A DNA stretch of 56,798 bases, taken from NCBI GenBank assembly GCA_024408435.1, contig JAKSVA010000001.1, positions 1-56,798 on the forward strand, written 5' to 3'. Shown piece after piece: positions 25,419 through 42,075 of the stretch (position 1 is its first letter; the number at the start of each line of letters is the position of its first letter). The position numbers and the translations under genes are program-made. The stretch is from Bacilli bacterium (GTDB lineage: Bacteria; Bacillota_I; Bacilli_A; RFN20; CAG-826). The notes below the pieces were generated by a model. That model did no database searches and was not told where the DNA came from. It was given only the letters and a program-made list of their open reading frames with translations.

Positions 25419-25473
25419 GTTTAACCCTTTATGAAAAGTGATACTAGGTGTGCTAAATTTTTTACAAAAATTT

Positions 25474-26503: not shown

Positions 26504-26626
26504 TTTTATTTTATAATAAAAAATATTATTTGTTAAAAAACGTCATTATTATATATGATAACAATTATTACTAAATAAAAAAGTTCATCACATCGCTTTA
26601 TTATGAACTTATATCGCAAGATGGAA

Positions 26627-26936
26627 TCTTCTCCCATGATGACAAAGTCATGATAGGTTACATAACTATCTATTAATACACTTATTAACTAAATAATAAT
26701 TATCATTAAATGAATCGATTTACCACTAACCCCCACGTTGTCATAGACAAGGTGGGTACTCTTCTCCCATGATAACGAAGTTAGGATGAGTTAACTAATA
26801 TTATTAATAATGTCTATTAACTAAGAAATATATTATTCCCACTAACTAAAGTTATTTATTACTAACAAACATCTTGTTGTGGCAACAAGAGGATGGACAA
26901 TTCACTCCACGATGTCAAAGACAGGGTGGACCCGGT
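26627..26936 (+). repeat. Two tandem units (133 and ~177 bp) of an imperfect-hairpin repeat family, junction copy 1
   Basis: Both units begin TCTTCTCCCATGAT (26627 and 26760). Hairpins are CCCATGATGAC-AAA-GTCATGATAGG (26633..26657), CCCACGTTGTC-ATA-GACAAGGTGGG (26732..26756), TCTTGTTG-TGGC-CAACAAGA (26872..26891) and CCACGATGTC-AAA-GACAGGGTGG (26907..26929). Confidence 0.8.
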
Positions 26937-27141
26937 TTTTATACTAACTTATCTTTTCAAATTTCTATTCTATTGCAAAATAGTTTCGGAGATTTTTACT
27001 CCATTTTACACGGTTCATTATCATATTTACTTGCATTTTAATGATCACCTACTCAAACTTATTTTGATTAATCTAAATGTAAATGATAGTATCACCAAAA
27101 TAGTTTAAAAAAGAGTAATAAAATATGCTAATATATTAAGT

Positions 27142-28950
27142 ATGAAATTTGTTCTTCAACACGTTGTTTTTCCTTCTATAAAAAATATTGGTAACATAAG
27201 CGATTTATATTTTAAAAGCAATAGGAAAGTTATTTTTGATTACACAAAAAATGAACCAATACGTATGTCAAAACAACAAGAGTTAGAGTTTGCTACATAC
27301 TTTAATTGCTTTTCACAACAAAAATGGATTTTATATACTGATATTGGAAATATCAATCTATCCATTGAATTAAAAGGACAATTTTCTATTTCTTTATTAC
27401 ATCTATATAAAAATGGCCTCAACAAGAGTTGTTGTGAAATTTTATCAACAAAAAAAATAGTTTCTGACACTAGAAAAATTTTTGATTTGAATTTTTCATC
27501 TTTTGACTCGACTGGAATTCTTGCATTTAAAATCACATCGCTAGTAGACGGATCGTTATATTATGATTCATATTTCTACACTAATATCGATGAGCAAAAA
27601 ATTAAAAACATTAATTTAGGTATAGGAATATGCACATACAAAAGAGAAAAATATGTAACACAAAATATATCTTCATTGACTAATGCAATAAAACTAAATA
27701 ATTGTTTTTCTAATTTACAAATATTTATTGCGGATAATGGAAATACATTGCAATCGTTTAATAACGACCATATCCATTTATTTAAAAACAGAAATACTGG
27801 TGGATCAGGCGGTTTTACACGCTGCATGATAGAAGCCATAAATTATAATAAAAAAAACAATCACCCAATTACTCATCTTATTCTCATGGATGATGACATC
27901 ATTTTTGATTGCGAATCCATTTTTAGAACTCATGCAATGTTGTCCATACTTAAAGATGATTACAAAAAAGAGTTTGTTGGTGGCGCAATGTTTTTCTTTG
28001 ATAAGCCATACATTCAGCACGCATCTGGCGAATTTTGGGTCGGTGATAGATGCGAAAGTTTTATTGATACATACAATAGAAACCTTGACATGAGAAAAAT
28101 TTCGTGTGTTCTTGATAGTGAAAAACCACTTTATTCCAATTATCAAGCTTGGTGGTACTGTGCTATTCCTATGTCCATTGTCTCTTACAAAAATTTGCCA
28201 ATGCCTTTTTTCGTAAAAAGCGATGATATTGAATATAGTATAAGAAACAAAAATCACACTATATTACTTAATGGAATTTGTGTGTGGCATGAATCGTTTG
28301 AATCAAAATATTCCCCAAAAAATGAATATTATACAGTAAGAAATTATCTAATAACCGCAAGTGCTCATAAAATAAAATTGGATAAAAGAAGGATTAAGTC
28401 TTTTTTTCTAAGGTATGTAAAACACTACATATGCAATTATAAATATTTAGAAATTAAATATTTTTGTTATGCGCTAAATGATTTTTTACGTGGAGTTGAT
28501 TACGTTAAATCAATAAATATTGAGCAATGCCACAAAGTAAAATTAAATAAAGGTTATAAAATAATGCATGTCAACGATTTACCTTTTCATTTTTCAAAAG
28601 CAGAATACTGGAAAACAATAAAAGAGGATGAGAAACATAAAGTTCCATTCTTATTCGCGAAATACACTATCAACGGATTACTAATCCCATCCCATAAGTA
28701 TGCAGTCTTAGGTGTATGGGGTGGCTCATATTATCAAACTTATAGAAAAAAATTTTTAATTAGATATGATCCCCATACTAACACCGCCTTTATATTACGC
28801 AGAAAACCTTTATTAAGTTTCAAATCATTATTGTTAGCATATAGAACTGTGAGAAAAATAAACAAATATTTTGATTATGCTTATAAGGATTTTTCTAAAA
28901 ATTGGAGGAAATTAATTTCTTACGATAATTGGAAAAAACATTTAAGTTAA
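27142..28950 (+). CDS. Family 2 glycosyltransferase, GlfT2-like architecture
   Basis: 602 aa. It has NRNTGGSGGFTRCM, LILMDDDIIFD (DxD) and QAWWYCAIPMS...FVKSDDIEYSIR. It is a paralogue of 33540..34592. Confidence 0.75.
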   Translation: MKFVLQHVVFPSIKNIGNISDLYFKSNRKVIFDYTKNEPIRMSKQQELEFATYFNCFSQQKWILYTDIGNINLSIELKGQFSISLLHLYKNGLNKSCCEILSTKKIVSDTRKIFDLNFSSFDSTGILAFKITSLVDGSLYYDSYFYTNIDEQKIKNINLGIGICTYKREKYVTQNISSLTNAIKLNNCFSNLQIFIADNGNTLQSFNNDHIHLFKNRNTGGSGGFTRCMIEAINYNKKNNHPITHLILMDDDIIFDCESIFRTHAMLSILKDDYKKEFVGGAMFFFDKPYIQHASGEFWVGDRCESFIDTYNRNLDMRKISCVLDSEKPLYSNYQAWWYCAIPMSIVSYKNLPMPFFVKSDDIEYSIRNKNHTILLNGICVWHESFESKYSPKNEYYTVRNYLITASAHKIKLDKRRIKSFFLRYVKHYICNYKYLEIKYFCYALNDFLRGVDYVKSINIEQCHKVKLNKGYKIMHVNDLPFHFSKAEYWKTIKEDEKHKVPFLFAKYTINGLLIPSHKYAVLGVWGGSYYQTYRKKFLIRYDPHTNTAFILRRKPLLSFKSLLLAYRTVRKINKYFDYAYKDFSKNWRKLISYDNWKKHLS

Positions 28951-29044
28951 AAAGTTTATTTTTTTAGTTTTATATCAAAAACTTTATTACTTAATGTAGA
29001 AAAATTAACAAGTACATAATATAATAATTATGGAGTTTTATTTT

Positions 29045-31822
29045 ATGAATAAAATAATGGACAATCTTGAAGAAAGATGCACTGGGTGCTCCGCTTGTAT
29101 GAATGCATGCCCTACAAATGCAATAGAAATGAAGGAAAATTTAGAAGGATTTTTGTTTCCTTCAATCGATGATAACAAATGTATTAATTGCAAAAAATGT
29201 TCTTCAATATGCCCGGCGAACAATTTAGTGAAAGACAATTGTTTAAGTGAAAAAATGTATGCAGTGGAAGCCGATGATGAAACTCGTGTGATAAGTTCTT
29301 CTGGAGGGGTTTTTAGCGTAGTTGCGAAATATTTTTTGCAAAATGATGGATATGTTTGTGGCGCGGCGTTTGATAAAAAATTGCAGCTAAGACATGTAAT
29401 AATTAATAAACTTGAGGATTTACCTCAACTATGTAAATCAAAATATTTGCAAAGTAGTATAGGTTATATATTTTCTGATATTAAACAACTTTTGGATAAA
29501 GGAAAAAACGTATTATTTGTTGGAACACCTTGTCAAGTAGCAGGGTTAAATAATTACTTAATAAAAAAATACGATAACTTGTTAACAATGGATTTAATGT
29601 GTCATGGAGTTCCTTCACAAAAATCATTCAACAAATATTTAGAAGAAATTGAAACTTGCAAAGGCGTGTCTGCTGTTGATTGCACATTTCGTTTGAAGCA
29701 TAATGGCTGGTTGGGTTCTGCAGAAAGGATAATGATAAAATTCAAAGATGACAGCACATATTCTAAAACAAGGTCTGCTGGAGACCCTTATGTAAAAGCT
29801 TTTTTAGAAAATATCGACTTAAGAAAAAGCTGTGAAGATTGTCCTTTTTCAGAATTACCAAGGCATGGAGATTTATCAATAGGGGACTTTTGGGGAATTG
29901 AAAAGTATAAAAAGGAGCCTATAGATAATAAAGGGACATCAATAGTACTAATAAACAACAAAAAAGGAGAAATGTTTTTTAATAAATGCATCAAACTTAA
30001 TACAAAAAATGAAGAATACAATTTCAGCGATAACATGCCTAATAGAGTACATAGAATTTTTAAACATTCACGTTTTAGAAAGCAATTCTTCCTAGAATTA
30101 GAAAATAAAAGTTTTTCCAACGCTTTAAATCAAAGTATCACTCTATCAGATGATAAAAATACATTTTTTGCGGGCAAAAGATATGATGTAGGATTAGTAT
30201 GCAATTATTCCGCACTAAATTTTGGTGGGAGTCTAACACAATATGCCTTGTTTAATGTCTTAAAAGATTTAGGGAAGTCTGTCTTACTAATTGAAAGGCC
30301 AAAAAATGCACCAGAAGCTATTTACCCAAATATTTATCATCAAATGTACAATAAGTGGCCATATTTAAAACAAGACACTTCACCACAATTTAATGATAAA
30401 AATGAAATGAAACTACTTAATCAATATTGTGATAGATTTATCGTAGGATCTGATGTTTTGTTTAGAGCTTCTCTTTATAAAAAAATGGGCAAAATTTCGT
30501 CTCTAAGTTGGGTTAATAATGATAAACCAAAAATAGCCTACGCTGCTTCTTATGGTTTTGACTTCATGGAAGGTAGTTATGACGATAATGCTGAATTGTC
30601 TTATTTTCTCAAAAAATTTGATGCATTTTCTTGCCGAGAAAAAAGTGGCATAAAACTATTCAAAAACTTTTTTGGCATAGATTCTACTTTTGTTTTAGAT
30701 CCCGTTTTTTTGTGTGATAAAAAACATTATGAAAATTTAATAAATAAAAGCAATAAACAAATAAAAAGTGGATCTATTTGTTGCTATATACTTGACCCAA
30801 ATGACTATAAAAGAAATGTTATCCTACAAGTTAGCAAAACATTAAACAACAACCCTATAATTTTTTCTGAATTCCTTTCAGAAAAAGCGAACTCATTATT
30901 AAAAAAGCATTTTTTTGATTTTAATTGCGTTAATTACACAATTGAAGATAGATTAAAATGTTTTAAAGAAAGCAGCTTTGTCATCACTGATTCTTTTCAT
31001 GGAACATGTTTAGCTATCATTTATAACAAACCATTTATATGCATGCCGAACGCAGAGCGCGGATTAACTCGTTTTGATTCTCTTCTTAATTTTTTCAGAT
31101 TAAATAATAGAGCTATAATCTCAAAAAACGTAATTTCTCCTGAAATTGTTTTAAAATCTATAAATTATAAATCGGTTAACAAAAAAATTAAAAAAACTGT
31201 AGCGAAAAACAAAAAATGGTTGCTGCATGCATTAGCAATAAAACCACATATTGGTTATTCGCAATACGACATTTTAAGTAGAAAATTAACTGAATATCAA
31301 AATAATGAGATAGCAACAATTAAAAAACAAATAAAATTTTTATATTCTAAAATTAATTGTCTTCCACTGATAAATGATATTAAACAATACTTTACAAAAT
31401 TATCAGAATTAAGTGAGCATTTGACAATAATTATTTCTGTAAAAGACACACCTGGAATAGAGTTATCAAAACCATTTGCAGAATTTATAAAAAATAATGT
31501 AAAATCCAATTGTAATTTAGCAAATAATCACCAAAACAGTTATATTTTGATTAATAGTTTTGGCAAAAATATTTTTGAAATGTTAAGTGCAGAAAAAATC
31601 ACTAAGGTGGTAAAATGCGATAATTTTGAAATTAATGTTACAAGTGCAAATTTAAAAGTTGGTAATGAGTCTAGCATATTGATAAATGGCAAAGAATATT
31701 CTATAAATCAGCGCGGTTTAAACATCGTAATAATTGATCATTTTTGTAATGTCGTTATTGATTCAATTAACATCGACACGCATCTAATTCCGTATAAATT
31801 TAATCATTTACCTGTTATATAA
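29045..31822 (+). CDS. Fusion protein: 2x[4Fe-4S] ferredoxin / F420H2-dehydrogenase beta-like domain + polysaccharide pyruvyl transferase domain + extra C-terminal domain
   Basis: It has CTGCSACMNACP and CINCKKCSSICP clusters, an FrhB/FdhB-like region (GTPCQVAGL), then a pyruvyl transferase-like region (VITDSFHGTCLAIIYNKPFI). The ATG at 29045 has GGAG 9 nt upstream. The track start is 29030. Confidence 0.7.
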   Translation: MNKIMDNLEERCTGCSACMNACPTNAIEMKENLEGFLFPSIDDNKCINCKKCSSICPANNLVKDNCLSEKMYAVEADDETRVISSSGGVFSVVAKYFLQNDGYVCGAAFDKKLQLRHVIINKLEDLPQLCKSKYLQSSIGYIFSDIKQLLDKGKNVLFVGTPCQVAGLNNYLIKKYDNLLTMDLMCHGVPSQKSFNKYLEEIETCKGVSAVDCTFRLKHNGWLGSAERIMIKFKDDSTYSKTRSAGDPYVKAFLENIDLRKSCEDCPFSELPRHGDLSIGDFWGIEKYKKEPIDNKGTSIVLINNKKGEMFFNKCIKLNTKNEEYNFSDNMPNRVHRIFKHSRFRKQFFLELENKSFSNALNQSITLSDDKNTFFAGKRYDVGLVCNYSALNFGGSLTQYALFNVLKDLGKSVLLIERPKNAPEAIYPNIYHQMYNKWPYLKQDTSPQFNDKNEMKLLNQYCDRFIVGSDVLFRASLYKKMGKISSLSWVNNDKPKIAYAASYGFDFMEGSYDDNAELSYFLKKFDAFSCREKSGIKLFKNFFGIDSTFVLDPVFLCDKKHYENLINKSNKQIKSGSICCYILDPNDYKRNVILQVSKTLNNNPIIFSEFLSEKANSLLKKHFFDFNCVNYTIEDRLKCFKESSFVITDSFHGTCLAIIYNKPFICMPNAERGLTRFDSLLNFFRLNNRAIISKNVISPEIVLKSINYKSVNKKIKKTVAKNKKWLLHALAIKPHIGYSQYDILSRKLTEYQNNEIATIKKQIKFLYSKINCLPLINDIKQYFTKLSELSEHLTIIISVKDTPGIELSKPFAEFIKNNVKSNCNLANNHQNSYILINSFGKNIFEMLSAEKITKVVKCDNFEINVTSANLKVGNESSILINGKEYSINQRGLNIVIIDHFCNVVIDSINIDTHLIPYKFNHLPVI

Positions 31823-31847
31823 TTAAATATTGAGATACAAGCATTAT

Positions 31848-32708
31848 ATGAAGCAAAATTTAAAAGAAATATACGATTACCGACAGATGATAATCGGTCT
31901 CATTCGGAGAGATTTAAGAGGGCGATATAAAGGTAGCCTTCTTGGGTTTTTATGGACTTTTATTAATCCACTTCTTCAATTACTTGTCTATACACTTGTT
32001 TTTGGCGTTTTATTGAAAAATAAAGTGCCCGATTTTTATTTATATGTTTTCGTCGGCCTTATTCCATGGCTATTTTTTTCATCATGCCTTGTTGGAGGAT
32101 CGGAGGCGATTATTAGTCAACAAAGATTAGTTACAAAAGTGTACTTCCCGCGCGAAGTTTTACCTATTTCTTATGTTACTAGTAGTTTTATTAATATGTT
32201 ATGTTGTTTTATTATCGTTATGGCCGTTTATTTATTTTCAGCATTTACTTCTTTTGATGGTGGATTCCATTGGACTTTCCCTCCTACTGATCCTACGACT
32301 GGTTTAACCACTTTTTCTTTTCTACCTTTATTAGCTTTACCACTCGTATTTCTAATTGAATACATTATGTGCCTTGGTATGACACTATTTACGAGTGCCA
32401 TTACAGTATATGTAAGAGATGTACGACACATTCTTGGAATTGTTGGAATGCTCTGGATGTTTTCAACGCCAATTATGTGGAAAATATCAAATGTATTAGA
32501 TCCAGGAAGGATGGAAAGATGGGGTTGGCTGTTTTTATATGTAAATCCTATGACTGGGATAATCGAAGCTTGCCATAGCATTTTATATAACGGAGCATGG
32601 CCTAATTTTACTTATTTAGCCGCTTCAGCTGGTTGGGCCATATTAGCCATTATTGTTGGAATTCCTGTATTTAACAAAGCTAAGAAACATTTTGCCGAGG
32701 AATTATAA
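31848..32708 (+). CDS. ABC-2 type polysaccharide exporter permease (Wzm/TagG-like)
   Basis: It has 6 TM segments and an N-terminal LIRRDLRGRYKGSLLGFLWTFINPLL signature of ABC-2 permeases. The track start is TTG at 31830; the ATG at 31848 is preferred. Confidence 0.85.
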   Translation: MKQNLKEIYDYRQMIIGLIRRDLRGRYKGSLLGFLWTFINPLLQLLVYTLVFGVLLKNKVPDFYLYVFVGLIPWLFFSSCLVGGSEAIISQQRLVTKVYFPREVLPISYVTSSFINMLCCFIIVMAVYLFSAFTSFDGGFHWTFPPTDPTTGLTTFSFLPLLALPLVFLIEYIMCLGMTLFTSAITVYVRDVRHILGIVGMLWMFSTPIMWKISNVLDPGRMERWGWLFLYVNPMTGIIEACHSILYNGAWPNFTYLAASAGWAILAIIVGIPVFNKAKKHFAEEL

Positions 32709-32710
32709 TC

Positions 32711-33535
32711 ATGAATGAAGTAACAGAAAAAGTAATTAACGTTAATCATGTCAGTAAAAGTTTTAAGATATATTTTGATAAAGGACATACTTTAAAAGAA
32801 AAACTTCTTTTTTGGAAGAGAAATAGACATGAAAAAAGAGAGGTTTTAAATGACATTACTTTTTCAGTGAAAAAAGGGGGATCAGTGGGCTTAATAGGTC
32901 GCAACGGATGTGGTAAGTCAACAATGCTAAAAATGCTTACTAAAATTTATTATCCTGATAAAGGCGATATTAGTATTAATGGTAAAATCTCTTCTTTAAT
33001 TGAATTAGGTGCTGGATTCCATCCTGATATGACTGGTAGAGAAAATATTTATATAAACGCTTCAATATATGGTTTAAGTAGAAAAGAAATAGATAAGCGA
33101 ATTGATTCAATTATTGCCTTTAGTGAAATCAAAAATTATATAGATAATCCTATAAGAACATATTCATCTGGAATGTATATGAGACTAGCTTTTTCAATAG
33201 CTATTAGCGTAAGTGCTGATGTTTTACTCATTGATGAAATTTTAGCGGTAGGCGATGCTAGTTTTCAAGCAAAATGCTTTAATAAGTTAAAAGAACTTAA
33301 AAAACAAGGGAAAACTATTGTAATAGTTAGTCATAATATGAAATCAATCATTGAATTTTGTGATAGTTGTATCTGGATTGAAAAAGGCAAAATTAAAAAA
33401 ATTGGTGATACCGAGAAAGTTATTAATAGTTATTTAGACTATATGGTTGATAAAGATGTATTTAAAACGTTAAATAGCCACGATCGTTCTTCTATCACTA
33501 ATGAAATTAATAGAAGAAAAATGCCAAAAAAATAA
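32711..33535 (+). CDS. Polysaccharide ABC exporter ATP-binding protein (Wzt/TagH-like, short form)
   Basis: It has Walker A GRNGCGKST, signature YSSGMYMRLAFS and Walker B VLLIDEILAVGD. At 274 aa it has no C-terminal glycan-binding domain. Confidence 0.9.
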   Translation: MNEVTEKVINVNHVSKSFKIYFDKGHTLKEKLLFWKRNRHEKREVLNDITFSVKKGGSVGLIGRNGCGKSTMLKMLTKIYYPDKGDISINGKISSLIELGAGFHPDMTGRENIYINASIYGLSRKEIDKRIDSIIAFSEIKNYIDNPIRTYSSGMYMRLAFSIAISVSADVLLIDEILAVGDASFQAKCFNKLKELKKQGKTIVIVSHNMKSIIEFCDSCIWIEKGKIKKIGDTEKVINSYLDYMVDKDVFKTLNSHDRSSITNEINRRKMPKK

Positions 33536-33539
33536 ATAC

Positions 33540-34592
33540 ATGAAAGTATCTATTATAATTTGTACATACAACCGTCAAGAAAATATTAAATACAATTTAG
33601 CAACTTTGAATAATCATTGCAAAAATTTTATCCATCACATTTACGTTATTGATAATGCATCAAATCTTCCTCAATCTTTAAGCAATGATTTCATATCAAT
33701 CATTCCAAATAAAAATCTAGGTGGAAGCGGAGGATACGCTAGAGGGATGTATGAGGCTAAAAAAGATAAAGAAACAACTCATATTATTCTCATGGATGAC
33801 GATATAAAATTTGAACCGGATGTGTTACAAAATGCAATCAGCCGGTTAAACGACATTGATAAAAATGATTGGTTGGCGTTTGGGATGAGAACATTTGAAA
33901 AACCAAATATCATATACGAAAACACTGCGTTTTGGAATGGAATACGCCCAATAGCGAATCATCGTGGATATAACCTAATTAAAGATAAACAATGGAAAAG
34001 AAGAAAATGCAATTACGCTGCATGGTGGTCTTTAATCATGCCAATTTCAGTTATAGATAAATATAGGTATCCAATGCCTTATTTTATTAAATCAGATGAT
34101 GTTGAATACGCTTTGAGAAGGAGAAACGAAACAATACATTGTTTTAAAGATATTTCAATATTACATGAAGATTTTGACAAAAAATATAATCATTACATTG
34201 AATATTACAACATTAGAAACTATCTAATAACTAACGCTATTCATCTAAAACATAGTTTATTAAAATCTTGGTTAATGTATGTTCTTAGAATGGGCAAATC
34301 ATGGTTAACTGGTAATTTCAAAAAAATAAAATTAGCTAATATCGGCCTAAAAGATTTTTTATTAGGCCCATCTTGCATAACTAATACGGACTTAAGCGAA
34401 AAAAATACGATGATAAGAGATATGACTAACAAAGCTAAAATAAACTTAATTAATATCATTACATTTCCTTTTATTGTTTTTTTTAATTCACTTGTACTTG
34501 TTTTTAAATATAGAAGAGTTAGAAAACAATATTTAGATTCTTATCAATATCTCACTAGTGAAGCTTATTGGGAAAAACAATTTAATAGTTGA
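33540..34592 (+). CDS. Family 2 glycosyltransferase, GlfT2-like (paralogue of 27142..28950)
   Basis: MKVSIIICTYNR, NKNLGGSGGYARGM, IILMDDDIKFE, AAWWSLIMPIS...FIKSDDVEYALR. The ATG at 33540 follows the Wzt stop at 33535. The track start at 33501 overlaps Wzt. Confidence 0.8.
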   Translation: MKVSIIICTYNRQENIKYNLATLNNHCKNFIHHIYVIDNASNLPQSLSNDFISIIPNKNLGGSGGYARGMYEAKKDKETTHIILMDDDIKFEPDVLQNAISRLNDIDKNDWLAFGMRTFEKPNIIYENTAFWNGIRPIANHRGYNLIKDKQWKRRKCNYAAWWSLIMPISVIDKYRYPMPYFIKSDDVEYALRRRNETIHCFKDISILHEDFDKKYNHYIEYYNIRNYLITNAIHLKHSLLKSWLMYVLRMGKSWLTGNFKKIKLANIGLKDFLLGPSCITNTDLSEKNTMIRDMTNKAKINLINIITFPFIVFFNSLVLVFKYRRVRKQYLDSYQYLTSEAYWEKQFNS

Positions 34593-34593
34593 A

Positions 34594-35517
34594 CTATTTT
34601 AGATTGTATTCTTTCAACAAAAATTTGTATAAAGTATTGGGTTTAGATCTAAACAATTTAGATCTTTTATAAGTAATTTTATAAATGTGTGTGTTAATAA
34701 GCGCTTTGTCATATTCATATGCATTATATTTTTTGTAAAAGAATTTTTTAAAGATTTTTAGCACCATATCATTGTTATATGGAACACTGACAATGATATT
34801 ATTAACTATTCTATTTGATTCAGAATATAAAGAAATTAATTGATCCAATAAAAAATAATCAATTGTTAAGTTATGATCTGAATAATATTTTTCATAGAAT
34901 CTTGATAATCCAGTGAATAGAGGATTATTTTTCCCAACAGCCATTGCAAAAATTGAATTAGGCCATCCAGGATACCTAATGGTCCAATACGGGTATCCAA
35001 TCAAATGATCAATTGGTTTAGTAAGAAAAATAGTTGAATCTAGCCATAATCCGCCATGTTTAGCTAGTAAATATGTTCTTAATATATCAGAAAAATGAGT
35101 GATATCAATAATGCCTTTTTCAAATTTTTCAATAATTATATTGGGTAAATCGGCGTATTGTTTATAGTTATTTTTATCAATAATTACAACATTTTGAGCG
35201 TATTTTTTTATTGACTCTAAACAGAGCAAAATTGGTTTAGGCGTATTATTGTTAATTCCCTGATACCAAAAAAAGAAAGTTTTAAAATTTGCATCGATAA
35301 GTGGAGCGGTTTCCTTCTCAACGATTAGATAATTTTTGTAATTAGTTTTTATATATTCTTTCGATAGAATCCATTTTAAATCTTGATATTTTTGTTTGTT
35401 AGTCAATAAATATAGCAAAGAGTATTTGTAATATTTATGAGCAATTTTTTTTCCAAATTCTTTTTTATATTTTCTATAGGTTGACAATTTTAATATTTTA
35501 ATAATCCAACGCTTCAT
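34594..35517 (-). CDS. Capsular polysaccharide synthesis (Caps_synth-type) glycosyltransferase
   Basis: FFFWYQGINNNTPKPILLCLESIKKY and HFSDILRTYLLAKHGGLWLDSTIF match the Caps_synth / DXD-sugar-binding transferase pattern. Confidence 0.7.
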   Translation of the reverse strand: MKRWIIKILKLSTYRKYKKEFGKKIAHKYYKYSLLYLLTNKQKYQDLKWILSKEYIKTNYKNYLIVEKETAPLIDANFKTFFFWYQGINNNTPKPILLCLESIKKYAQNVVIIDKNNYKQYADLPNIIIEKFEKGIIDITHFSDILRTYLLAKHGGLWLDSTIFLTKPIDHLIGYPYWTIRYPGWPNSIFAMAVGKNNPLFTGLSRFYEKYYSDHNLTIDYFLLDQLISLYSESNRIVNNIIVSVPYNNDMVLKIFKKFFYKKYNAYEYDKALINTHIYKITYKRSKLFRSKPNTLYKFLLKEYNLK

Positions 35518-35523
35518 AAAAGA

Positions 35524-36330
35524 TTACTTCACTGATTTTTTATATCTTTTCCCAAAAAACTTAGCTCTTAAATAATTAATGCCTTTGCGGAGTTTTGCAA
35601 ACGCAATTAATTCAAGATACCCAACCTCTTTATATTTAATATTATTATGTCTTAGATAGATATCTAACATTAGTTCAGATACACTACCCATATAACGTTT
35701 TTCATAATCACTCCAAGTTGAAGAATCAATCTTATTTTCAATTGCACCTAATACATCAAATAACCATGGTAGATATTTATCTAGGAATGTTTTATTTGCA
35801 ATTAACATATTAAACATATGCGCGGATCTTCTTTTTCTTAAATTATTAAATTCTTTAAGATATTCAGGATATTTATCTTTAATTACTTCTTCTGCAGCTT
35901 TTAGTGGTTCAGGTCTAAGTGTACGACAATAATGATCATAAAGTGTCTCAATAATGTAATAACGTTTCTTAGGCACGATAATATCGTAATTAGATAAGAT
36001 AGACTTGCACTCTTCTTCACTTATAACATGAACAGTTTTATCATCTGCGGATATTCTTAATCTACCTTTAAAGTATCTCCGGTAATGCGCTAAACCTAAA
36101 AAATCATAATCTAAATGCTTCCATCCCCAATATAATGCAGTTAATTCTGAATAATAAGGATTCTTATCAGAGATATTATCTCCTTCATCATCACGAGCGA
36201 TACCAAAACTAGGTTTATTAACCGCTCCAGCCTGAATAAGTTTATAAAAACTATTCGCATATAAAGTAAATGGAATATGAGTACAAACTAAGATTGTGTT
36301 CTTTTTATCCATAAGATAATTATATAGCAT
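35524..36330 (-). CDS. DUF4422-type putative glycosyltransferase
   Basis: ILVCTHIPF, YYSELTALYWGWKH and DFLGLAHYRRYF are characteristic of DUF4422 proteins in polysaccharide loci. The start could instead be the ATG at 36312. Confidence 0.7.
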   Translation of the reverse strand: MLYNYLMDKKNTILVCTHIPFTLYANSFYKLIQAGAVNKPSFGIARDDEGDNISDKNPYYSELTALYWGWKHLDYDFLGLAHYRRYFKGRLRISADDKTVHVISEEECKSILSNYDIIVPKKRYYIIETLYDHYCRTLRPEPLKAAEEVIKDKYPEYLKEFNNLRKRRSAHMFNMLIANKTFLDKYLPWLFDVLGAIENKIDSSTWSDYEKRYMGSVSELMLDIYLRHNNIKYKEVGYLELIAFAKLRKGINYLRAKFFGKRYKKSVK

Positions 36331-36359
36331 ATTCCGCTAATTAATAATGAATGAGGAGG

Positions 36360-36558
36360 GCGGGTCCACCCTGTCATTGACATCGTGGACAGGGGATGGA
36401 TACCCTCTTGTTGACACAATAGGGTATGGCTATGATATAAGTTTCTTTATTATTATCATTTAGTTAATATAAATATATTAATAGATAGTATATAACCCAT
36501 CATGACTTTGTCATCATGGGGGAAAGCTTCCACCTTGTCTAAACGACAACGTGGGAAT
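36360..36558 (-). repeat. Imperfect-hairpin repeat family, junction copy 2 (inverted relative to 26731..26936)
   Basis: The reverse complement of 36361..36388 matches 26907..26934 at 27/28. The reverse complement of 36496..36520 matches 26633..26657 at 24/25. The reverse complement of 36530..36555 has the same arms as 26732..26756 but a different loop. Confidence 0.8.
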
Positions 36559-36635
36559 GGATAATACGTTTTTGTTATAAGTGAATATATATTGAGTTCG
36601 TTATTACGATTGCTTGTTATATAATAATATATAGA

Positions 36636-37067
36636 ATGAAAAAATTAATAAAATTTATTAATAAACATTTTTCTAGTTTAATTCGACTTATTAAAGAAAT
36701 TTTTTGTGGCTTTGTTGCATCGGCGGTTTTTGCGTTGTTCAGTTGGTTAACAACGTTAATAAATCCTCTAAAAGATTATCCGATTATAAGCGCGATTTCT
36801 ACTTGGACGTCAATTGTTATATTATTGTTATTTTCGTTATACGGCATTACCGATTATATTTTTAATGTGACTCCCGCCTTAGTGAAATCTTTTAGAAATA
36901 TGAAAAGAAAAGTTCGCAAGAAAAATAAGATTGACTATTTTAATGGAAATCCAGACGCTTTACCTGGATCTAGTGGAAAACCATTTGAGGATATTATTGA
37001 TGATTTAGAAAAAATGGATATCGATGATCCAAAAAATAAAGTAGGAGGCGACGACAATGAAGATTGA
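36636..37067 (+). CDS. Small membrane protein (2-3 TM, acidic C-terminal tail), first gene of the DGQHR cluster
   Basis: 143 aa with hydrophobic segments at about residues 20-45 and 50-75. The C-terminus is DIIDDLEKMDIDDPKNKVGGDDNED. Its 3' end contains the GGAGG RBS of the next gene and overlaps it by 11 nt. Confidence 0.6.
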   Translation: MKKLIKFINKHFSSLIRLIKEIFCGFVASAVFALFSWLTTLINPLKDYPIISAISTWTSIVILLLFSLYGITDYIFNVTPALVKSFRNMKRKVRKKNKIDYFNGNPDALPGSSGKPFEDIIDDLEKMDIDDPKNKVGGDDNED

Positions 37068-38205: not shown

Positions 38206-38301
38206 GTATCTTCTCTAATGTAGAACATCGATTTGAATGAGAGAGGGATGCACATTCACTACGCAAAATAAGCAAGCTATCATATGAAGTAGGAGAACAT
38301 T

Positions 38302-39456
38302 ATGGGCATTGTACTGAAAGATAAAATGACTAGAACAAATTTGTTGAATAAGACAAAAGATTTTATTCTTGTTTTAAATTCAAATTTAAACACTAAAAAA
38401 GAAACAAAACCATACGAAACAAAAGTTTTCTTTGAAACTGTTGATTTCATTGATTTAGAAATAAAACGAATTAATAAATTTGAATTTGATAAATTTGAAT
38501 CATTCAATGAACAGTATAAGAAATATTATGAAACCAGATTTCTTAATATCGAAAGCACATGTTATCTTATCTTAAATATGAATAAGCAAACAAACATTTC
38601 AGTTATAATTAATTGCCTTAATAATTTGAAAAATGCTATAGGTATTGATTCAAATTATTCTTTATTTGAAAAATTTAGATATGGTAATTCTAATTATGTT
38701 TTGTTTGGAAAAAACGGCGCTGGTAAAACTACTCTTTTAAAATATCTTAGAATCAACCTGATTAATTCTAATGTACATTTTGCTCAAGCGGCTAGAAATG
38801 TTAACTACTCTATAGATAATGCGTGGTACAATCCTTTTCAAAACAATTTAGATAACGTCTTAAATGGGGTAGAAGATAATAAAGCTATGTTGCTTTTATC
38901 ACTTTGCATGTTGAAGCAAGAGAGACGTGAATTGGAAGGCGGAATAGAAAGCGAAAACACTATATTAAATAAATTTTGTAAGATGTTTAATTCGTTAGGT
39001 CTTGATAGAAACATCGAGATTAATGAAAAAGATGAATTAAAGCTTGTTCCTCCGGGTGAAAATAGCTACTCTTTTTCTAATGCATCTGATGGCGAAAAAA
39101 CGATTGCTTATTTTATAATGCTTACACTTTTGGCAGCAAAAAATTCTTTCATATTTATTGATGAGCCTGAAAACCATTTAAATGGTTCATTAATGATCAA
39201 ATTGTTTGACTTACTTGAATCAAGTCGACAAGATGTTAAGTTCGTTTATTCAACTCATAATATAAATTTTGTAAAAAGCAGAAACAATTGTGAACTCGTA
39301 TATTTGCAAAAAACATCTAAATTAAATCATTGGGAATTTAAAACAATTTCTATGATTAACGATTTACCCTACAATGTAATCTTAAATATTGAAGGAACCA
39401 ATGATAATGTTTTGCTGTGTGAAGGCACAACTCTTCTTATGATGAACAATTACTAA
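38302..39456 (+). CDS. ABC-like (AAA_15/21-type) ATPase with a ~130-aa N-terminal extension; its C-terminus carries the first Toprim motif
   Basis: It has Walker A FGKNGAGKTTLLKYL, a signature-like ASDGEKT and Walker B FIFIDEPENHL. The last residues NVLLCEGTT resemble the (V/L)EG start of a Toprim/DUF4435 domain. An AGGAG RBS is present. Confidence 0.75.
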   Translation: MGIVLKDKMTRTNLLNKTKDFILVLNSNLNTKKETKPYETKVFFETVDFIDLEIKRINKFEFDKFESFNEQYKKYYETRFLNIESTCYLILNMNKQTNISVIINCLNNLKNAIGIDSNYSLFEKFRYGNSNYVLFGKNGAGKTTLLKYLRINLINSNVHFAQAARNVNYSIDNAWYNPFQNNLDNVLNGVEDNKAMLLLSLCMLKQERRELEGGIESENTILNKFCKMFNSLGLDRNIEINEKDELKLVPPGENSYSFSNASDGEKTIAYFIMLTLLAAKNSFIFIDEPENHLNGSLMIKLFDLLESSRQDVKFVYSTHNINFVKSRNNCELVYLQKTSKLNHWEFKTISMINDLPYNVILNIEGTNDNVLLCEGTTLLMMNNY

Positions 39457-39473
39457 CGGTCCTTTATCCAAAT

Positions 39474-40142
39474 TTGAAAGTTATATCTAGTGATGGGTGC
39501 GATAGAGTAATTAATACAACAAAAACTATTAATTTTTATTCGAGCGAATTAAGAAAAAAGGCTTTTGGAATTATTGACAATGATTTCAGAGAACATGATG
39601 ATATAGTTGCCCTAAGGGAAGATAATATTTTTGTACTTCCTTACAACGAAATTGAAAATATGTTTTTACTCGAGCCTTGTTTGGCTTTAATGAAAAAACA
39701 TTTGTTTGTAGATAGTGCTATTGATAATATCAAGTTTTCTATTATAAAAATTATTGAAAGCAAGAAAAAACATATACTAAGTGATTTTGCTTCAAAAACT
39801 ATTAGAACTATATATAAACGAAATAAGTTAGATGATATTAATCATTTAGAAGAATCTCTAAATAGTTTAAATACTAAAAATAATGGAATATTTTTAGCAA
39901 AATATTCATCATTTAAGAATGCGCTAGATCAAAATATTATATTAAACAATTATGATAGTTTAATGAAACTAGTTCCTGGAAAAATGATTATTGCTGATAT
40001 TGCTGCCATTTACAAAATGTCTGATGCGAAAAGTTACATTAAATTGCTACTTAGTAAATTAAGATTCGATGAAGCTTTGAAAGAAAAATTAAGGTCTTTT
40101 GTCGATATACCCAATATTTTCAAACCGAAGCAATTATCTTAA
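39474..40142 (+). CDS. DUF4435/Toprim-like domain protein (OLD/AriB-like), probably the frameshifted continuation of the upstream ATPase
   Basis: GIIDNDFREHDD gives the Toprim DxD. The frame is open back to 39423 (RHNSSYDEQLLTVLYPNLKV...). The track start is TTG with no RBS. Confidence 0.6.
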   Translation: MKVISSDGCDRVINTTKTINFYSSELRKKAFGIIDNDFREHDDIVALREDNIFVLPYNEIENMFLLEPCLALMKKHLFVDSAIDNIKFSIIKIIESKKKHILSDFASKTIRTIYKRNKLDDINHLEESLNSLNTKNNGIFLAKYSSFKNALDQNIILNNYDSLMKLVPGKMIIADIAAIYKMSDAKSYIKLLLSKLRFDEALKEKLRSFVDIPNIFKPKQLS

Positions 40143-40148
40143 GTTTTC

Positions 40149-40892
40149 TTAATGTCCGCTTTTATCTTCATTGCGTTTAATGAATTCAGGATCTTTAGTG
40201 GCTTCTAACATTCCTTTTCTATATTCATCATTTCTAATGTTATGCTTATAAATCATTAATTCAGTTAAGGTTGCGTAGATAAGTTTTCTTTTAGTGCTTG
40301 TATAATATTTTGTATAACATAGTAATTTCTCAATATCTATATGATATTTCTTAAGTAAATTACATAATATGATTTTATATTCTTTATCATCTACATCTAT
40401 GTTAGCGTCATATTTATTTGAAATTACATCAAGAAACATAAAATATTTATAATTCTCATTATTAATTTTTAATGGAGGTTTTATTAATGTAAGGTCCTTA
40501 GTGTTTCTTAATAAAGTTGTTCGATAATTATTAGTGACAATATACATTTTAGTAGACATTTGAGTGGATAATCCTAATTGGTTAATAAGACCAGGACCAG
40601 TCTCATATCCAATTCTTTCACCTTTTTTGTTAACTATGCATAGACGAGATATTAATTCGAATTCATTAATGCCGGTTTTACCAAATGGAGTATCAACGCT
40701 TTTATAAAAGATACCTTTTTGATATCTATTAATATTATCGTTTTGATCAATATAACGACTAATGTATTCCATAACTACATCATAAGGAATCGTTTCATGT
40801 GAATTTACATAGTCATATACATCTTTTGAAAAGATTGGTTTACTAGTTCCTTGCTTATTAATGTATTTCTTAATATTTCTCATTACATCCAT
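40149..40892 (-). CDS. AbiEi-like / DUF6088-type putative antitoxin-transcriptional regulator
   Basis: 247 aa. RYQKGIFYKSVDTPFGKTGINEFELI and GYETGPGLINQLGLSTQMSTKMYIVTNN resemble DUF6088/AbiEi_4 proteins. The C-terminal tail matches the small ORF at 19477. Confidence 0.55.
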   Translation of the reverse strand: MDVMRNIKKYINKQGTSKPIFSKDVYDYVNSHETIPYDVVMEYISRYIDQNDNINRYQKGIFYKSVDTPFGKTGINEFELISRLCIVNKKGERIGYETGPGLINQLGLSTQMSTKMYIVTNNYRTTLLRNTKDLTLIKPPLKINNENYKYFMFLDVISNKYDANIDVDDKEYKIILCNLLKKYHIDIEKLLCYTKYYTSTKRKLIYATLTELMIYKHNIRNDEYRKGMLEATKDPEFIKRNEDKSGH

Positions 40893-41048
40893 ATGTTATA
40901 TTATTGTAATTATTTTATATAATATTTCAACAAAAACATAATTTTGTGTATTGACTTTACTATGTAATCAATTTAATATAGTGATACAGAGCCCACCACG
41001 CATAAGGCACATTCGTGTGTACTGCGAACCAGGGTGGGACATTTTATT

Positions 41049-41891
41049 ATGAAGTTACCATTGATTTTATCTGATTATCCAAATTTATCCGTTGATGACA
41101 TCAACAAGGTTAGCCGTTTTCTTTCTACTAAATGTAGTGAGTATCGTTTTATTGATTTTATGCGTTGCTCAAATGGTAATGTTAAGGATGCTATCGAGTT
41201 CTTTAAATTTGATGATGCGCTAAGAGCACTATTAATTCAATATTTAATTCGTTTTGAGATACAAGTTAAAACCGATTTCATAAAAGAAGTAGAAACCGCA
41301 ACTAGTTCTAATTCATTTTGGGATAATCCTTCGTATTATTTCAAAAGTTCTACCATTCCATATTATCCTGATGGCAAATCAAAGTTTGACAAAATAAAAG
41401 AAGATATAACTCAAAACTTAAAAAGATATGCCTTTAATACACCTGGTCCATCTGATTACCGAGCATTAATGTTTTCTTCTTTTGGCTCGTTCCACAATCT
41501 ATTTAAAAATATAGATCTTCCTTACAAGAAAAAATTTATTGATAGATATACTATAAAGTTACCAGTACATAACTATTATGTATTAAATGGATATTTTTCA
41601 GCTATTCAAGCTATTAGAAATCGATGTGCACACGGAAACCATATTGTTACAATAAAGCTAAAAAATCAATTAAACGCTCATATTAACTTAATTCATAAGA
41701 TGAATTCTCCTATGCCAAAAATAAACATTTCTGTCTTTGATGCGGTTCTTATATTTTTAATAAATGTCCTAAACTGCGGTGGAGAATTTAAAGGCAAATT
41801 AAAGAAGATTATTACCAAATACAGTGGCGTTTTATTTAGATATCCTGGTAACTATGTATTCTCACCAAATATAATAAATAAAATTTTGTAA
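41049..41891 (+). CDS. Abi_2 (AbiD/AbiF-like) family protein, HEPN-type with an Rx4H motif
   Basis: FSAIQAIRNRCAHGNHIV (R-x4-H) and the N-terminal FKFDDALRALLIQYLIRFEIQVKTDF are typical of Abi_2. The ATG at 41049 is preferred over the GTG at 41034. Confidence 0.75.
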   Translation: MKLPLILSDYPNLSVDDINKVSRFLSTKCSEYRFIDFMRCSNGNVKDAIEFFKFDDALRALLIQYLIRFEIQVKTDFIKEVETATSSNSFWDNPSYYFKSSTIPYYPDGKSKFDKIKEDITQNLKRYAFNTPGPSDYRALMFSSFGSFHNLFKNIDLPYKKKFIDRYTIKLPVHNYYVLNGYFSAIQAIRNRCAHGNHIVTIKLKNQLNAHINLIHKMNSPMPKINISVFDAVLIFLINVLNCGGEFKGKLKKIITKYSGVLFRYPGNYVFSPNIINKIL

Positions 41892-41948
41892 CACATTTCA
41901 CTTTCTATTGTGTATAATACTAATTAGATGACCGGGTTTTTACCGGCC

Positions 41949-41973
41949 GCGGGCGAGAGCCCGCTTTTCTTTT
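41949..41973 (+). terminator. Rho-independent terminator after the Abi_2 gene
   Basis: The stem is GCGGGC-GAGA-GCCCGC (41949..41964), followed by TTTTCTTTT. Confidence 0.8.
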
Positions 41974-41989
41974 ACTAAACTAAAAACAC

Positions 41990-42056
41990 ACAATCCTAAC
42001 TTCATTATCATAGGGTGGGGGTTTGCTCCCTTTGTTTTGTTAATACAAAAAAGAGG
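41990..42056 (-). repeat. Degenerate third copy of the imperfect-hairpin repeat family (junction copy 3)
   Basis: AATCCTAACTTCATTATCATAGGG resembles the reverse complement of 26766..26790 (CATCCTAACTTCGTTATCAT-GGG). It is followed by a pyrimidine arm, loop and purine arm: CCCTTTGTTTTG-TTAATA-CAAAAAAGAGG. Confidence 0.45.
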
Positions 42057-42075
42057 TACACTTAAATTTGTTTTA

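What the first reader, a model, noticed from the sequence alone, without database searches (positions are those of the whole stretch)
26731..42056. Copies of the hairpin repeat sit at all three boundaries between glycan-biosynthesis blocks and defence blocks
Seen:
- Copy 1 (26627..26936, plus orientation) lies between the ABC-3C operon and the first glycan block.
- Copy 2 (36360..36558, inverted) lies between that glycan block and the DGQHR cluster.
- A degenerate copy 3 (41990..42056, same orientation as copy 2) lies between the Abi_2 gene and the second glycan block.

Consequences:
- The 9.4-kb glycan block, with convergent operons 27142->34592 and 36330->34594, is bracketed by inverted copies. 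Each operon therefore sees the repeat in the same orientation in its own upstream region.
- The 5.4-kb defence cassette 36.6-41.9 kb is bracketed by direct copies and splits what looks like one glycan locus in two.

Inference: the repeats are either shared leader or operator regions of glycan operons, or recombination substrates that allow inversion of the 9.4-kb block and insertion or excision of the defence cassette.
Basis: partly seen in the sequence, partly recalled or inferred. Interest (0 to 1): 0.6.

Follow-up and report, generated by a model that had tools for sequence, protein, structure and literature searches.

The report
Hairpin repeats marking gene-cassette junctions
A small family of strand-specific DNA hairpins, found so far in one genus of uncultured horse-gut bacteria, sits at the joints between swappable blocks of sugar-coat and anti-phage genes; it looks like a portable junction element, not a gene leader or an on/off inversion switch.

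Summary
The three copies are real. Copy 1 (26608-26935, +) is 1.5 tandem units. Copy 2 (36360-36560, -) is one full unit. Copy 3 (41985-42059, -) is a decayed 3' module only, with an intact counterpart at the same place in a sister genome.

A full unit is: hairpin pair, conserved AT-rich core, variable spacer, hairpin pair. Each hairpin is 5 bp + G.G mismatch + 5 bp. Stems are kept by compensatory changes, and the purine mismatch is always on one strand.

The family is confined to one genus of about 1-Mb Bacilli MAGs, plus one suspect contig. It occurs only in accessory islands and has no Rfam, phage or plasmid match.

The leader reading is disfavoured:
- Both glycan operons appear to have their own leaderless-type promoters at the ATG.
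- Hairpin strand ignores gene strand (8 of 16 sites between co-directional genes).

Elements and pairs recur at glycan/defence or cassette junctions in four to five related genomes. They point inward from both island flanks, and homology breakpoints fall at hairpin ends. A sister genome with an "empty" island has none.

I found no evidence for active inversion or excision. The longest run shared by copies 1 and 2 is 22 nt, and no dedicated recombinase was found.

Best reading (about 0.4): a new REP/BOX/attC-like junction repeat that acts as folded single strands.

The parts
26608..26662 (+). Copy 1, 5' module: remnant of the first hairpin (only its 3' arm, CAAGATGG) followed by an intact hairpin, CCCATGATGAC-AAA-GTCATGATAGG
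   Evidence: R1 35.1 bits. R2 30.0 bits at 26629-26662. Sequence read.
26663..26726 (+). Copy 1, AT-rich core (TTACATAACTATCTATTAATACACTTATTAACTAAATAAT...) ending in the CCACTAAC motif
   Evidence: Alignments A1 and A5. 82-91% identical to the cores in G001, G006 and G152.
26727..26795 (+). Copy 1, hairpin pair closing the first unit: CCCACGTTGTC-ATA-GACAAGGTGGG, a CU-rich linker, then CCCATGATAAC-GAA-GTTAGGATGAG
   Evidence: R1 71.5 bits. R2 41.1 and 38.0 bits.
26796..26935 (+). Copy 1, extra half unit: a second AT-rich core-like stretch with TTAACTAA and CCCACTAAC motifs, then a hairpin pair at 26866-26935. The pair ends in TCCACGATGTC-AAA-GACAGGGTGGA-CCCGG followed by T5.
   Evidence: R1 64.5 bits. 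Direct repeat D4, 26627-26665 / 26760-26798. 97% complementary to 36361-36389.
36491..36560 (-). Copy 2, 5' hairpin pair (hairpins B and A)
   Evidence: R1 78.6 bits, the best hit of the model. The antisense strand scores 12.7 bits or less.
36431..36490 (-). Copy 2, conserved AT-rich core
   Evidence: 84-91% identical to cores in G001:C38, G001:C55, G006:C4 and G152:C1, while the flanks are unrelated.
36360..36430 (-). Copy 2, 3' hairpin pair (hairpins C and D), ending in CCCG
   Evidence: R1 61.0 bits. R2 33.9 bits.
41985..42059 (-). Copy 3: a decayed 3' hairpin-pair module. Only the second hairpin (CCTATGATAAT-GAA-GTTAGGATTGT) is recognisable. The region of the first hairpin doubles as a plus-strand terminator-like hairpin behind Abi_2.
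   Evidence: R1 23.4 bits, R2 19.0 bits. The counterpart is intact in G001:C45 (53.3 bits) and truncated in G002:C67. Terminator scan.
27126..27144 (+). Predicted leaderless-type extended -10 promoter (TGCTAATAT), a 7-nt gap, then the ATG of the first glycan gene
   Evidence: Sequence read. Genome-wide position enrichment of TGnTAnnnT 6-11 nt before the ATG.
36310..36324 (-). Predicted -10 box TATAAT (36324-36319), a 6-nt gap, then the ATG at 36312 of the DUF4422 gene
   Evidence: Sequence read. Leaderless class statistics. This is a prediction, not mapped.
42076..42146 (+). Duplicated 5' stub of the Bac_transf promoter and start. Together with 45094-45165 it brackets the 3-kb TPP + pyruvyl-transferase cassette that separates copy 3 from the true Bac_transf start.
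   Evidence: blastn 58/68 identical. In G001:C45 the hairpin pair lies directly beside the Bac_transf upstream region.

Best explanation
The repeats belong to a lineage-specific, modular family of strand-specific hairpins. The family is portable DNA that marks the joints between accessory gene cassettes (glycan, anti-phage, lipoprotein) in hypervariable islands.

Shown:
- The hairpins are kept as structures by compensatory substitutions.
- They carry a conserved purine-purine mismatch (G.G, often with A.G beside it) on one strand only.
- Their orientation follows the island, not the neighbouring genes.
- Homology between genomes starts or stops at them.

Inferred:
- They act as folded single strands, most likely DNA, in the manner of integron attC sites or REP / IS200-type palindromes.
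- They are recognised by an enzyme that has not been identified.
- Over evolutionary time, cassettes are gained, lost and swapped at them.

On this reading the inverted pair around the 9.4-kb glycan block, and the direct pair around the defence cassette, are footprints of such events. They are not a working inversion or excision switch. The full roughly 200-290-nt unit (pair, AT-rich core, pair) would be a composite of two junction modules.
For: Structure:
- 90.5% of cells are paired, 10 of 20 pairs have changes on both sides, and 0 of 500 shuffles reach the observed score. Slid controls give 34-47% paired.
- Inner stems vary as TGTC/GACA, CAAC/GTTG, TTGC/GCAA, TAAC/GTTA and TGAT/ATCA.

Strand asymmetry:
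- The mismatch is G.G in 24 of 25 second hairpins and 17 of 25 first hairpins.
- The sense strand scores 60-79 bits; the antisense strand scores 10-15 bits.

Distribution:
- R1 hits 8 of 151 family genomes. Five are in genus g1 (G000 plus 4 of its 6 sister genomes), one is G152, and two are borderline at E about 0.01.
- There are 3 to 19 single hairpins per genome, and all 7 in G000 lie in this island.
- None lie at the Bac_transf flanks of G003-G006. G003 has an "empty" island, Bac_transf-Fic-S10 spanning about 1.2 kb, with no hairpin.

Independence from gene strand:
- Arrays in G001:C7 (all +) and G006:C53 (+ at 1.3-6.6 kb, - at 20.9-25.1 kb) keep one strand while the genes between them run both ways.
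- In gaps between co-directional genes, 8 of 16 sites are antisense.

Polarity:
- In all 6 full elements that adjoin a glycan block, the C-D end faces the glycan block.
- Elements on the S10 side point away from S10 in G000, G001, G004 and G006. Those on the Bac_transf side point away from Bac_transf.

Junctions:
- G001:C55 and G002:C67 share the GT2 operon and its leader. The hairpins themselves are only about 60% identical, identity of 90% or more starts just past the second hairpin, and everything upstream of the pair is unrelated.
- Homology between L147 and L134 starts at 4760, the base after the hairpin.
- The window copies are isolated patches of homology.

Decay:
- The copy 3 hairpin is intact in G001, degenerate in G000 and truncated in G002.
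Against: - No enzyme was found. There is no Y1 or Y2 HUH transposase (the Y2 control did not ring anywhere). There is no serine recombinase in G000. There are only two Xer-like tyrosine recombinases. IS110 copies in G006 and G002 carry no hairpins.
- Copy numbers are low for a mobile repeat.
- There are no target-site duplications at element ends.
- Loop lengths vary between 3 and 5 nt, which fits poorly with a fixed recombinase core.
- Cassettes are also transcription units. Any terminator-like or promoter-proximal element would therefore sit at their joints.
- Several array members are segmental duplicates, so uniform orientation is partly non-independent.
- About 9 of 21 last hairpins are followed by a T-run. 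That hints at an RNA-level (terminator-like) role for some.
- G.T and A.C counts in the stems (12 against 9) do not discriminate between strands or between RNA and DNA.
- All genomes are incomplete MAGs (61-90% complete).
Confidence: 0.4

Rival explanations
1. A cis-regulatory element of surface-glycan (and other) operons. It would be a JUMPStart-like upstream element, an operator, a 5'-end stabiliser, or a terminator/insulator that shields the leaderless promoters. It would sit at block boundaries simply because operons begin and end there.
For: - Copies 1 and 2, G001:C38, G001:C55 and G002:C67 lie sense-oriented 30-207 nt upstream of glycan or lipoprotein genes.
- 9 of 14 sense sites end 12-63 nt before the ORF start called (about 25-63 nt once three starts are re-read by eye).
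- About 40% of last hairpins are followed by T4-T6.
- Several hairpins abut extended -10 boxes.
- The sense-strand fold has z = -4.9.
Against: - There is no strand bias relative to neighbours: 8 of 16.
- Full elements in G006:C4, G152:C1 and G004:C22 are antisense to both neighbours.
- In 5 of 7 full copies the upstream gene is divergent, so there is nothing to insulate.
- Promoters are predicted downstream of the element.
- There is one NusG and no specialised paralogue.
- The distance to the promoter is variable.
- The hairpin decays at orthologous sites.
Confidence: 0.2
2. The full unit is a free-standing small RNA gene of about 200-290 nt: two hairpins, a conserved AU-rich single-stranded core, and two hairpins. 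It would serve as a conserved landmark next to which cassettes integrate, as happens at tRNA or tmRNA genes.
For: - It has a coherent unit with sharp ends and unrelated flanks.
- The core is nearly invariant across paralogous and orthologous copies.
- G006:C4 and G152:C1 copies stand alone on their strand.
- In G004:C22 a near-full unit and a copy of only its 3' part flank a 269-aa gene, like an att duplication.
- T-runs follow some copies.
Against: - There is no conserved promoter upstream, because homology starts exactly at the first hairpin.
- Terminator T-runs are absent in copy 2, G001:C38 and G004.
- It is absent from G003 and G005.
- The 5' module and the 3' module occur separately.
- No Rfam family matches.
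Confidence: 0.13
3. Working site-specific recombination sites. A recombinase would currently invert the 9.4-kb glycan block between copies 1 and 2 and excise or insert the defence cassette between copies 2 and 3, giving phase or antigenic variation.
For: - The geometry fits: inverted copies around convergent operons, and direct copies around the defence block.
- Mollicute-like bacteria are known, from general knowledge, to use Xer-type recombinases for surface variation, and two Xer-like genes are present.
Against: - Inverting the block would leave both operons in the same relation to a repeat, so there would be no switch.
- Copies share only patchy identity, with a maximum run of 22 nt.
- Copy 3 is a decayed single module that has an orthologue in other genomes.
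- The two recombinases are conserved housekeeping-type genes elsewhere in the genome.
- Loop or centre length varies.
Confidence: 0.1
4. Neutral leftovers. The copies would be products of a few segmental duplications and inversions inside a fast-changing island. They would have no function of their own, and the hairpins would be ordinary decayed terminators.
For: - Copy numbers are low.
- Some sites show decay.
- Segmental duplicates occur in the arrays.
Against: - Compensatory changes preserve the stems, and the G.G mismatch is conserved across genomes and paralogues.
- The core is about 90% identical in unrelated contexts.
- Canonical GC-rich terminators of a different kind exist in the same region.
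Confidence: 0.1

Closest known systems
Integron attC sites / CALIN cassette arrays
   Same: - Imperfect hairpins with a conserved unpaired position.
- Function tied to one strand.
- Structure conserved rather than sequence.
- One site per cassette junction.
- Uniform orientation in an array even when cassette genes are inverted.
- Cargo includes defence and surface-modification genes.
   Different: - These hairpins are 25-27 nt, against about 57-140 nt for attC.
- There are no R''/L''/L'/R' boxes and no GTTRRRY core.
- There is no IntI integrase and no attI or Pc platform.
- The host is a Firmicute, where integrons are, to my knowledge, not described.
- Hairpins often come in pairs with a CU-rich linker.
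- Cassettes have their own promoters.
REP / BIME elements with RAYT transposases, and IS200/IS605 ends or PATEs
   Same: - Short extragenic imperfect palindromes.
- The mismatch in the stem is conserved.
- Strand-specific.
- Lineage-restricted.
- Recognised as folded single-stranded DNA (in REP and IS200).
   Different: - No Y1 HUH gene was found in four genomes.
- There are only 3-19 copies per genome, not hundreds.
- There is no conserved GTAG-type 5' tetranucleotide.
- They are confined to accessory islands rather than spread genome-wide.
Pneumococcal BOX / RUP / SPRITE repeats (PMC3049150); neisserial NIME/dRS3 and Correia elements (the neisserial comparison is from general knowledge)
   Same: - Modular small interspersed repeats with extensive secondary structure.
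- Restricted to one species group.
- Judged parasitic rather than host-serving.
- Able to influence neighbouring genes.
- Found around variable surface loci.
   Different: - No sequence relation.
- The module design here is different (pair, AT core, pair).
- There is a conserved G.G mismatch.
- Copy number is far lower.
- There is an island-wide inward polarity.
JUMPStart/ops upstream of polysaccharide clusters (RfaH); LoaP and EAR leaders
   Same: A conserved non-coding element upstream of otherwise unrelated polysaccharide gene clusters. It is often the edge of the exchangeable block.
   Different: - There is no NusG paralogue.
- The element is probably upstream of the promoter.
- It also occurs antisense and beside non-glycan genes.
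- There is no Rfam EAR hit.

Membership tests
Any Rfam 15 RNA family | A score at or above a family's gathering threshold | tested here: not met
   There were no hits in the window at gathering thresholds. Only chance hits appeared at E up to 10 in 26400-27200. None fell on elements in 10 related loci; the only hit was the abiF motif beside an Abi_2 gene in G004.
Integron attC | An integron integrase (IntI-type tyrosine recombinase) with an attI platform nearby or in the genome | tested here: not met
   There are only two tyrosine recombinases of 297-306 aa, conserved in all four genomes and located elsewhere. There is none in the window.
Integron attC | A site of 57-140 nt with R''-L''...L'-R' boxes, the RYYYAAC/GTTRRRY core and extrahelical bases | tested here: not met
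   The hairpins are 25-27 nt with a symmetric G.G mismatch. No core-site consensus is present.
Integron attC | Uniform orientation of sites along an array, with one site per cassette junction | tested here: met
   This holds in the G001:C7, G006:C53 and G001:C46 arrays, and at the junctions.
REP/RAYT or IS200/IS605 PATE | A Y1 HUH transposase (PF01797) in the genome | tested here: not met
   0 of 4 genomes have one; the controls rang. The genomes are 61-86% complete, so absence is not proven.
REP/RAYT or IS200/IS605 PATE | An imperfect palindrome with a conserved mismatch, acting on one strand | tested here: met
Invertible promoter / inverton or Hin-type inversion system | Inverted repeats flanking the invertible segment, plus an invertase. 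Both orientations are seen in reads or strains. | tested here: inconclusive
   Inverted copies exist. However, G000 has no serine recombinase, and the hairpin pairs within one unit are direct repeats. Reads were not available, and no second assembly exists.
JUMPStart/ops, LoaP-type leader | A specialised NusG paralogue, and the element located inside the 5' UTR | tested here: not met
   There is a single NusG per genome. Predicted promoters lie downstream of the element; this is a prediction only.
MITE | Terminal inverted repeats and target-site duplications | tested here: not met
   The two ends are direct repeats of a hairpin pair. No duplication is seen at the seven aligned borders.

The most novel reading that the evidence does not exclude
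These hairpins are the recombination sites of an integron-like cassette system in Firmicutes that works without an IntI integrase. Folded single-stranded hairpins with a G.G mismatch would be recombined, perhaps by the resident Xer-like recombinases or by an enzyme not assembled in these MAGs. This would build inward-facing arrays of defence, glycan and lipoprotein cassettes.
Probability: 0.08. Interest if true: 0.85.

Novelty: new variant of a known kind. Interest (0 to 1): 0.5.

Why it matters
Anti-phage and surface-glycan genes turn over very fast, and how the cassettes are exchanged in most Gram-positive lineages is unknown. A structure-conserved, strand-specific hairpin that marks cassette joints in small gut Bacilli genomes would give a concrete handle on that question. 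It would provide a sequence to search for and a candidate substrate for a recombinase or nuclease. It would also be a marker for finding new defence cassettes in these uncultured organisms. If it is only a selfish repeat, it is still a useful annotation feature and explains why these islands break assemblies.

Tried and rejected
- Rfam at gathering and at relaxed thresholds: nothing.
- Exact-pattern scans of genome contigs found only G001. The metagenome-contig scan gave four chance hits in unrelated GC-richer DNA.
- Phage and plasmid collections: no match.
- The look-up of encoding contigs gave no second assembly of this strain.
- Enzymes sought:
  - Y1 transposase: absent.
  - Y2 transposase: no hit, but the control was silent, so this is uninformative.
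  - IS110: present in G006 and G002 only, on short contigs without hairpins.
  - Serine recombinase: none in G000.
  - NusG paralogue: none.
- A double-stranded operator reading was rejected. Non-conserved inner-stem positions stay complementary, and the mismatch is always G on the same strand.
- A leader-peptide reading of the core (MMGYILSINIFIN) was rejected. The frame is broken in copy 1 and shifted in copy 2, and there is no SD.
- TTAACTAA-type motifs of the core are not a genome-wide regulator motif.
- G.U against A.C counts do not decide the strand.
- Earlier-findings look-ups gave context only.
Full report
**Organism and setting**

The window comes from a MAG of about 1 Mb (0.95 Mb in 110 contigs, 82% complete). 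It is an uncultured Bacilli lineage from herbivore guts. The closest public relatives are horse-faeces MAGs: SecY is 89-94% identical to JAKSUY, JAKSUZ and UBA1719.

Positions 5-19 kb hold the S10 ribosomal-protein operon. Positions 19.7-45 kb are a low-GC (about 28%) accessory island. From 45 kb the conserved genes resume: Bac_transf, Wzy, PtsI.

- ABC-3C genes at 23859-26503 (-).
- Glycan genes at 27142-34592 (+), converging on 34594-36330 (-).
- TPP enzyme, pyruvyl transferase, Bac_transf and Wzy after that.

- Copies 1 and 2 share three inverted stretches at 82-97% identity.
- A degenerate hairpin pattern occurs 8 times in the window against 0.00 expected. Elsewhere in the assembly it does not occur at all.
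- Reading the sequences and aligning them with copies from sister genomes gives the unit:
  - hairpin B, CCCACGTTGTC-loop-GACAAGGTGG;
  - a CU-rich linker;
  - hairpin A, CCCATGATGAC-AAA-GTCATGATGGG;
  - a nearly invariant AT-rich core, TTACATACTATCTATTAATATATTTATTAACTAAATAATCATAATAAAGAAAC;
  - a variable spacer ending in CCACTAAC;
  - hairpin C, a linker, and hairpin D followed by (R)CCG.
- Copy 2 is one unit.
- Copy 1 is 1.5 units with its first hairpin truncated.
- Copy 3 is only a decayed C-D module.

The covariance model of a hairpin pair (R1) scores as follows:

| Location | R1 score |
|---|---|
| The intact pairs of copies 1 and 2 | 61-79 bits |
| Truncated 5' module of copy 1 (26608-26662) | 35 bits |
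| Copy 3 | 23.4 bits (E about 1e-4) |
| Antisense strand at the same places | 10-15 bits |

Copy 3 is not a chance match. At the same place, beside the Bac_transf upstream region, G001:C45 has an intact pair (53 bits) and G002:C67 has a truncated one.

**Structure and strand**

On the 11-sequence pair alignment:
- 90.5% of cells form standard pairs.
- 10 of 20 pairs show changes on both sides.
- No shuffle out of 500 reaches the observed covariation.
- Slid controls drop to 34-47% paired.

Inner stems are swapped wholesale between copies: TGTC/GACA, CAAC/GTTG, TTGC/GCAA, TAAC/GTTA, TGAT/ATCA.

The position between the two 5-bp stems is G opposite G in 24 of 25 second hairpins and in 17 of 25 first hairpins. 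In the D type an A.G pair lies beside it.

A double-stranded operator for a dimeric protein would not need complementarity at non-conserved positions. It also would not need a mismatch that is always purine-purine on the same strand. So the hairpins are selected as folded single strands.

G.T against A.C counts (12 against 9) do not show whether the folded strand is RNA or DNA. Both strands fold better than shuffles: z = -4.9 for the sense strand and z = -3.3 for the antisense strand.

**Distribution**

- There is no Rfam match.
- There is no phage or plasmid match.
- There is no real metagenome hit.
- R1 finds the family in 8 of 151 genomes of the taxonomic family. Five are in the window's genus (G000 plus 4 of its 6 sister genomes), one is G152, and two are borderline at E about 0.01.
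- The G152 contigs look like genus DNA: Abi_2 is 90% and Bac_transf 83% identical, against 77% for S10. These contigs may be mis-binned.
- A single-hairpin model (R2) counts hairpins per genome:

| Genome | Single hairpins |
|---|---|
| G000 | 7 (all in copies 1 and 2) |
| G001 | 19 |
| G006 | 15 |
| G004 | 4 |
| G002 | 3 |

- All examined copies lie among accessory genes. These include defence genes (AAA_14/DUF4143, OLD-like, NERD, methyltransferases, nucleotidyltransferases, Abi_2), glycan genes, lipoproteins and PAP2.
- G003 has the island reduced to Bac_transf - Fic gene - S10 within about 1.2 kb, with no hairpin.

**Not a leader**

In G000 the motif TGnTAnnnT ends 6-11 nt before the ATG in 50 of 632 long ORFs, and only one of those also has a Shine-Dalgarno sequence. 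Leaderless transcription from extended -10 promoters is therefore common in this genome.

Gene 27142 has TGCTAATAT followed by 7 nt. The DUF4422 gene has TATAAT followed by 6 nt before ATG 36312. The repeats therefore probably lie upstream of the promoters. This is a prediction and has not been mapped.

More generally, 14 of the first 21 sites have a same-strand gene downstream. But in gaps flanked by co-directional genes the hairpin matches the gene strand in only 8 of 16 cases. Full units in G006:C4, G152:C1 and G004:C22 are antisense to both neighbours. Only about 9 of 21 last hairpins are followed by a T-run. There is one NusG and no paralogue.

**Junction behaviour**

Comparing genomes shows five things.

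1. A full unit, or a hairpin pair, sits at a glycan/defence joint in:
   - G000 (twice);
   - G001:C55 (S10 - three unassigned genes - unit - GT2/RmlA operon);
   - G006:C4 (S10 - AbiTii/AAA_21/HNH - unit - glycan genes);
   - G152:C1 (glycan - unit - unknown genes - Abi_2);
   - G002:C67 (GT2 operon - pair - Abi_2 - Bac_transf).
   
   G001:C38 has a full unit upstream of a glycan-export operon, with only an unassigned 112-aa gene on its other side. In G004:C22 a near-full unit and a partial unit flank a 269-aa gene among defence genes.
2. In all six full units that adjoin glycan genes, the C-D end faces the glycan block. This holds even where the adjacent glycan gene is convergent.
3. Units on the S10 side point away from S10. 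Units on the Bac_transf side point away from Bac_transf. The result is inward polarity. The same pattern is seen in a second island, G006:C53: + at 1.3-6.6 kb and - at 20.9-25.1 kb, with genes on both strands in between.
4. Homology breakpoints coincide with hairpins.
   - G001:C55 and G002:C67 share the GT2 operon and its upstream leader. The hairpin pair itself is only about 60% identical, identity of 90% or more starts just past the second hairpin, and everything upstream of the pair is unrelated.
   - Homology between L147 and L134 starts at the base after a hairpin.
   - The window's copies are isolated homology patches in unique DNA.
5. Copy 3 decays across genomes. That argues against an indispensable local function.

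**Against an active switch**

- Inverting the block between copies 1 and 2 would leave each operon behind a repeat in the same orientation, so nothing would switch.
- The copies share at most 22 identical bases in a row.
- The only tyrosine recombinases are two conserved Xer-like genes elsewhere in the genome.
- G000 has no serine recombinase.
- Abi_2 lies next to Bac_transf in G002 too, at 87-92% identity. The glycan/defence interleaving is therefore old, not a recent insertion between copies 2 and 3.
- What G000 has in addition, relative to G002, is the 36.6-40.9-kb block and the 3-kb TPP cassette. The TPP cassette is flanked by a duplicated Bac_transf 5' stub.
- The direct test with reads could not be run, and no other assembly carries these genes.

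**Verdict**

Of the two interpretations, the leader reading is unlikely. The recombination reading is supported only as a long-term, comparative pattern.

My best reading is a new, lineage-specific family of strand-specific hairpin junction elements. It resembles attC sites, REP elements and BOX repeats in behaviour but belongs to none of them. The enzyme that would act on it has not been found.

Rivals that remain open: a cis-regulatory or insulator role, a stand-alone small RNA, and neutral leftovers.

Noticed in passing
L134 5631-5765 (G006:C53); L147 6692-6830 (G001:C46); L133 5154-5290 (G001:C7): A conserved module of about 135 nt, with a TGTTATAAT promoter and a canonical terminator (GCACT..AGTGC followed by T8). 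It looks like a small RNA gene. It lies between family hairpins, and in two loci it sits just upstream of a leaderless 184-aa zinc-ribbon gene. No Rfam family matches.
   Followed up: partly
L131 5101-5137 (G004:C22), minus strand: The abiF RNA motif (RF03085, 44.7 bits) overlaps the predicted start of an Abi_2 gene. The window's own Abi_2 gene (41034) gave no Rfam hit at gathering thresholds.
   Followed up: no
whole genome G000; e.g. window 27126-27144 and 36310-36324: Leaderless-type promoters are common. TGnTAnnnT ends 6-11 nt before the ATG in 50 of 632 ORFs of at least 150 aa, and only one of those also has a Shine-Dalgarno motif.
   Followed up: partly
window 42076-42146 and 45094-45165: A direct duplication of about 68 nt (58/68 identical) of the Bac_transf promoter and first codons. 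It brackets the 3-kb TPP-enzyme + pyruvyl-transferase cassette. In G001 and G002 the Bac_transf upstream region is uninterrupted.
   Followed up: partly
There the partner gene is an SDH/ClpP-like serine protease instead of Abi_2. This looks like a swapped effector behind a conserved regulator.
   Followed up: no
L141 5021-7203 (G003:C41): An "empty" version of the island. Bac_transf and the S10 operon are about 1.2 kb apart, with a single Bro-N/Fic gene between them and no family hairpin.
   Followed up: yes
L131 7797-7946 and 8830-8969 (G004:C22): Direct repeats of about 135 nt and about 93% identity, each an AT-rich core variant plus a C-D hairpin pair. They flank a single 269-aa minus-strand gene next to an OLD-like ATPase gene.
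   Followed up: partly
G152:C1 and G152:C48: These contigs, assigned to another genus, carry Abi_2 (90% identical), Bac_transf (83%) and a full hairpin unit nearly identical to that of G006. The same bin's S10 is only 77% identical. This points to possible mis-binning or recent transfer.
   Followed up: no
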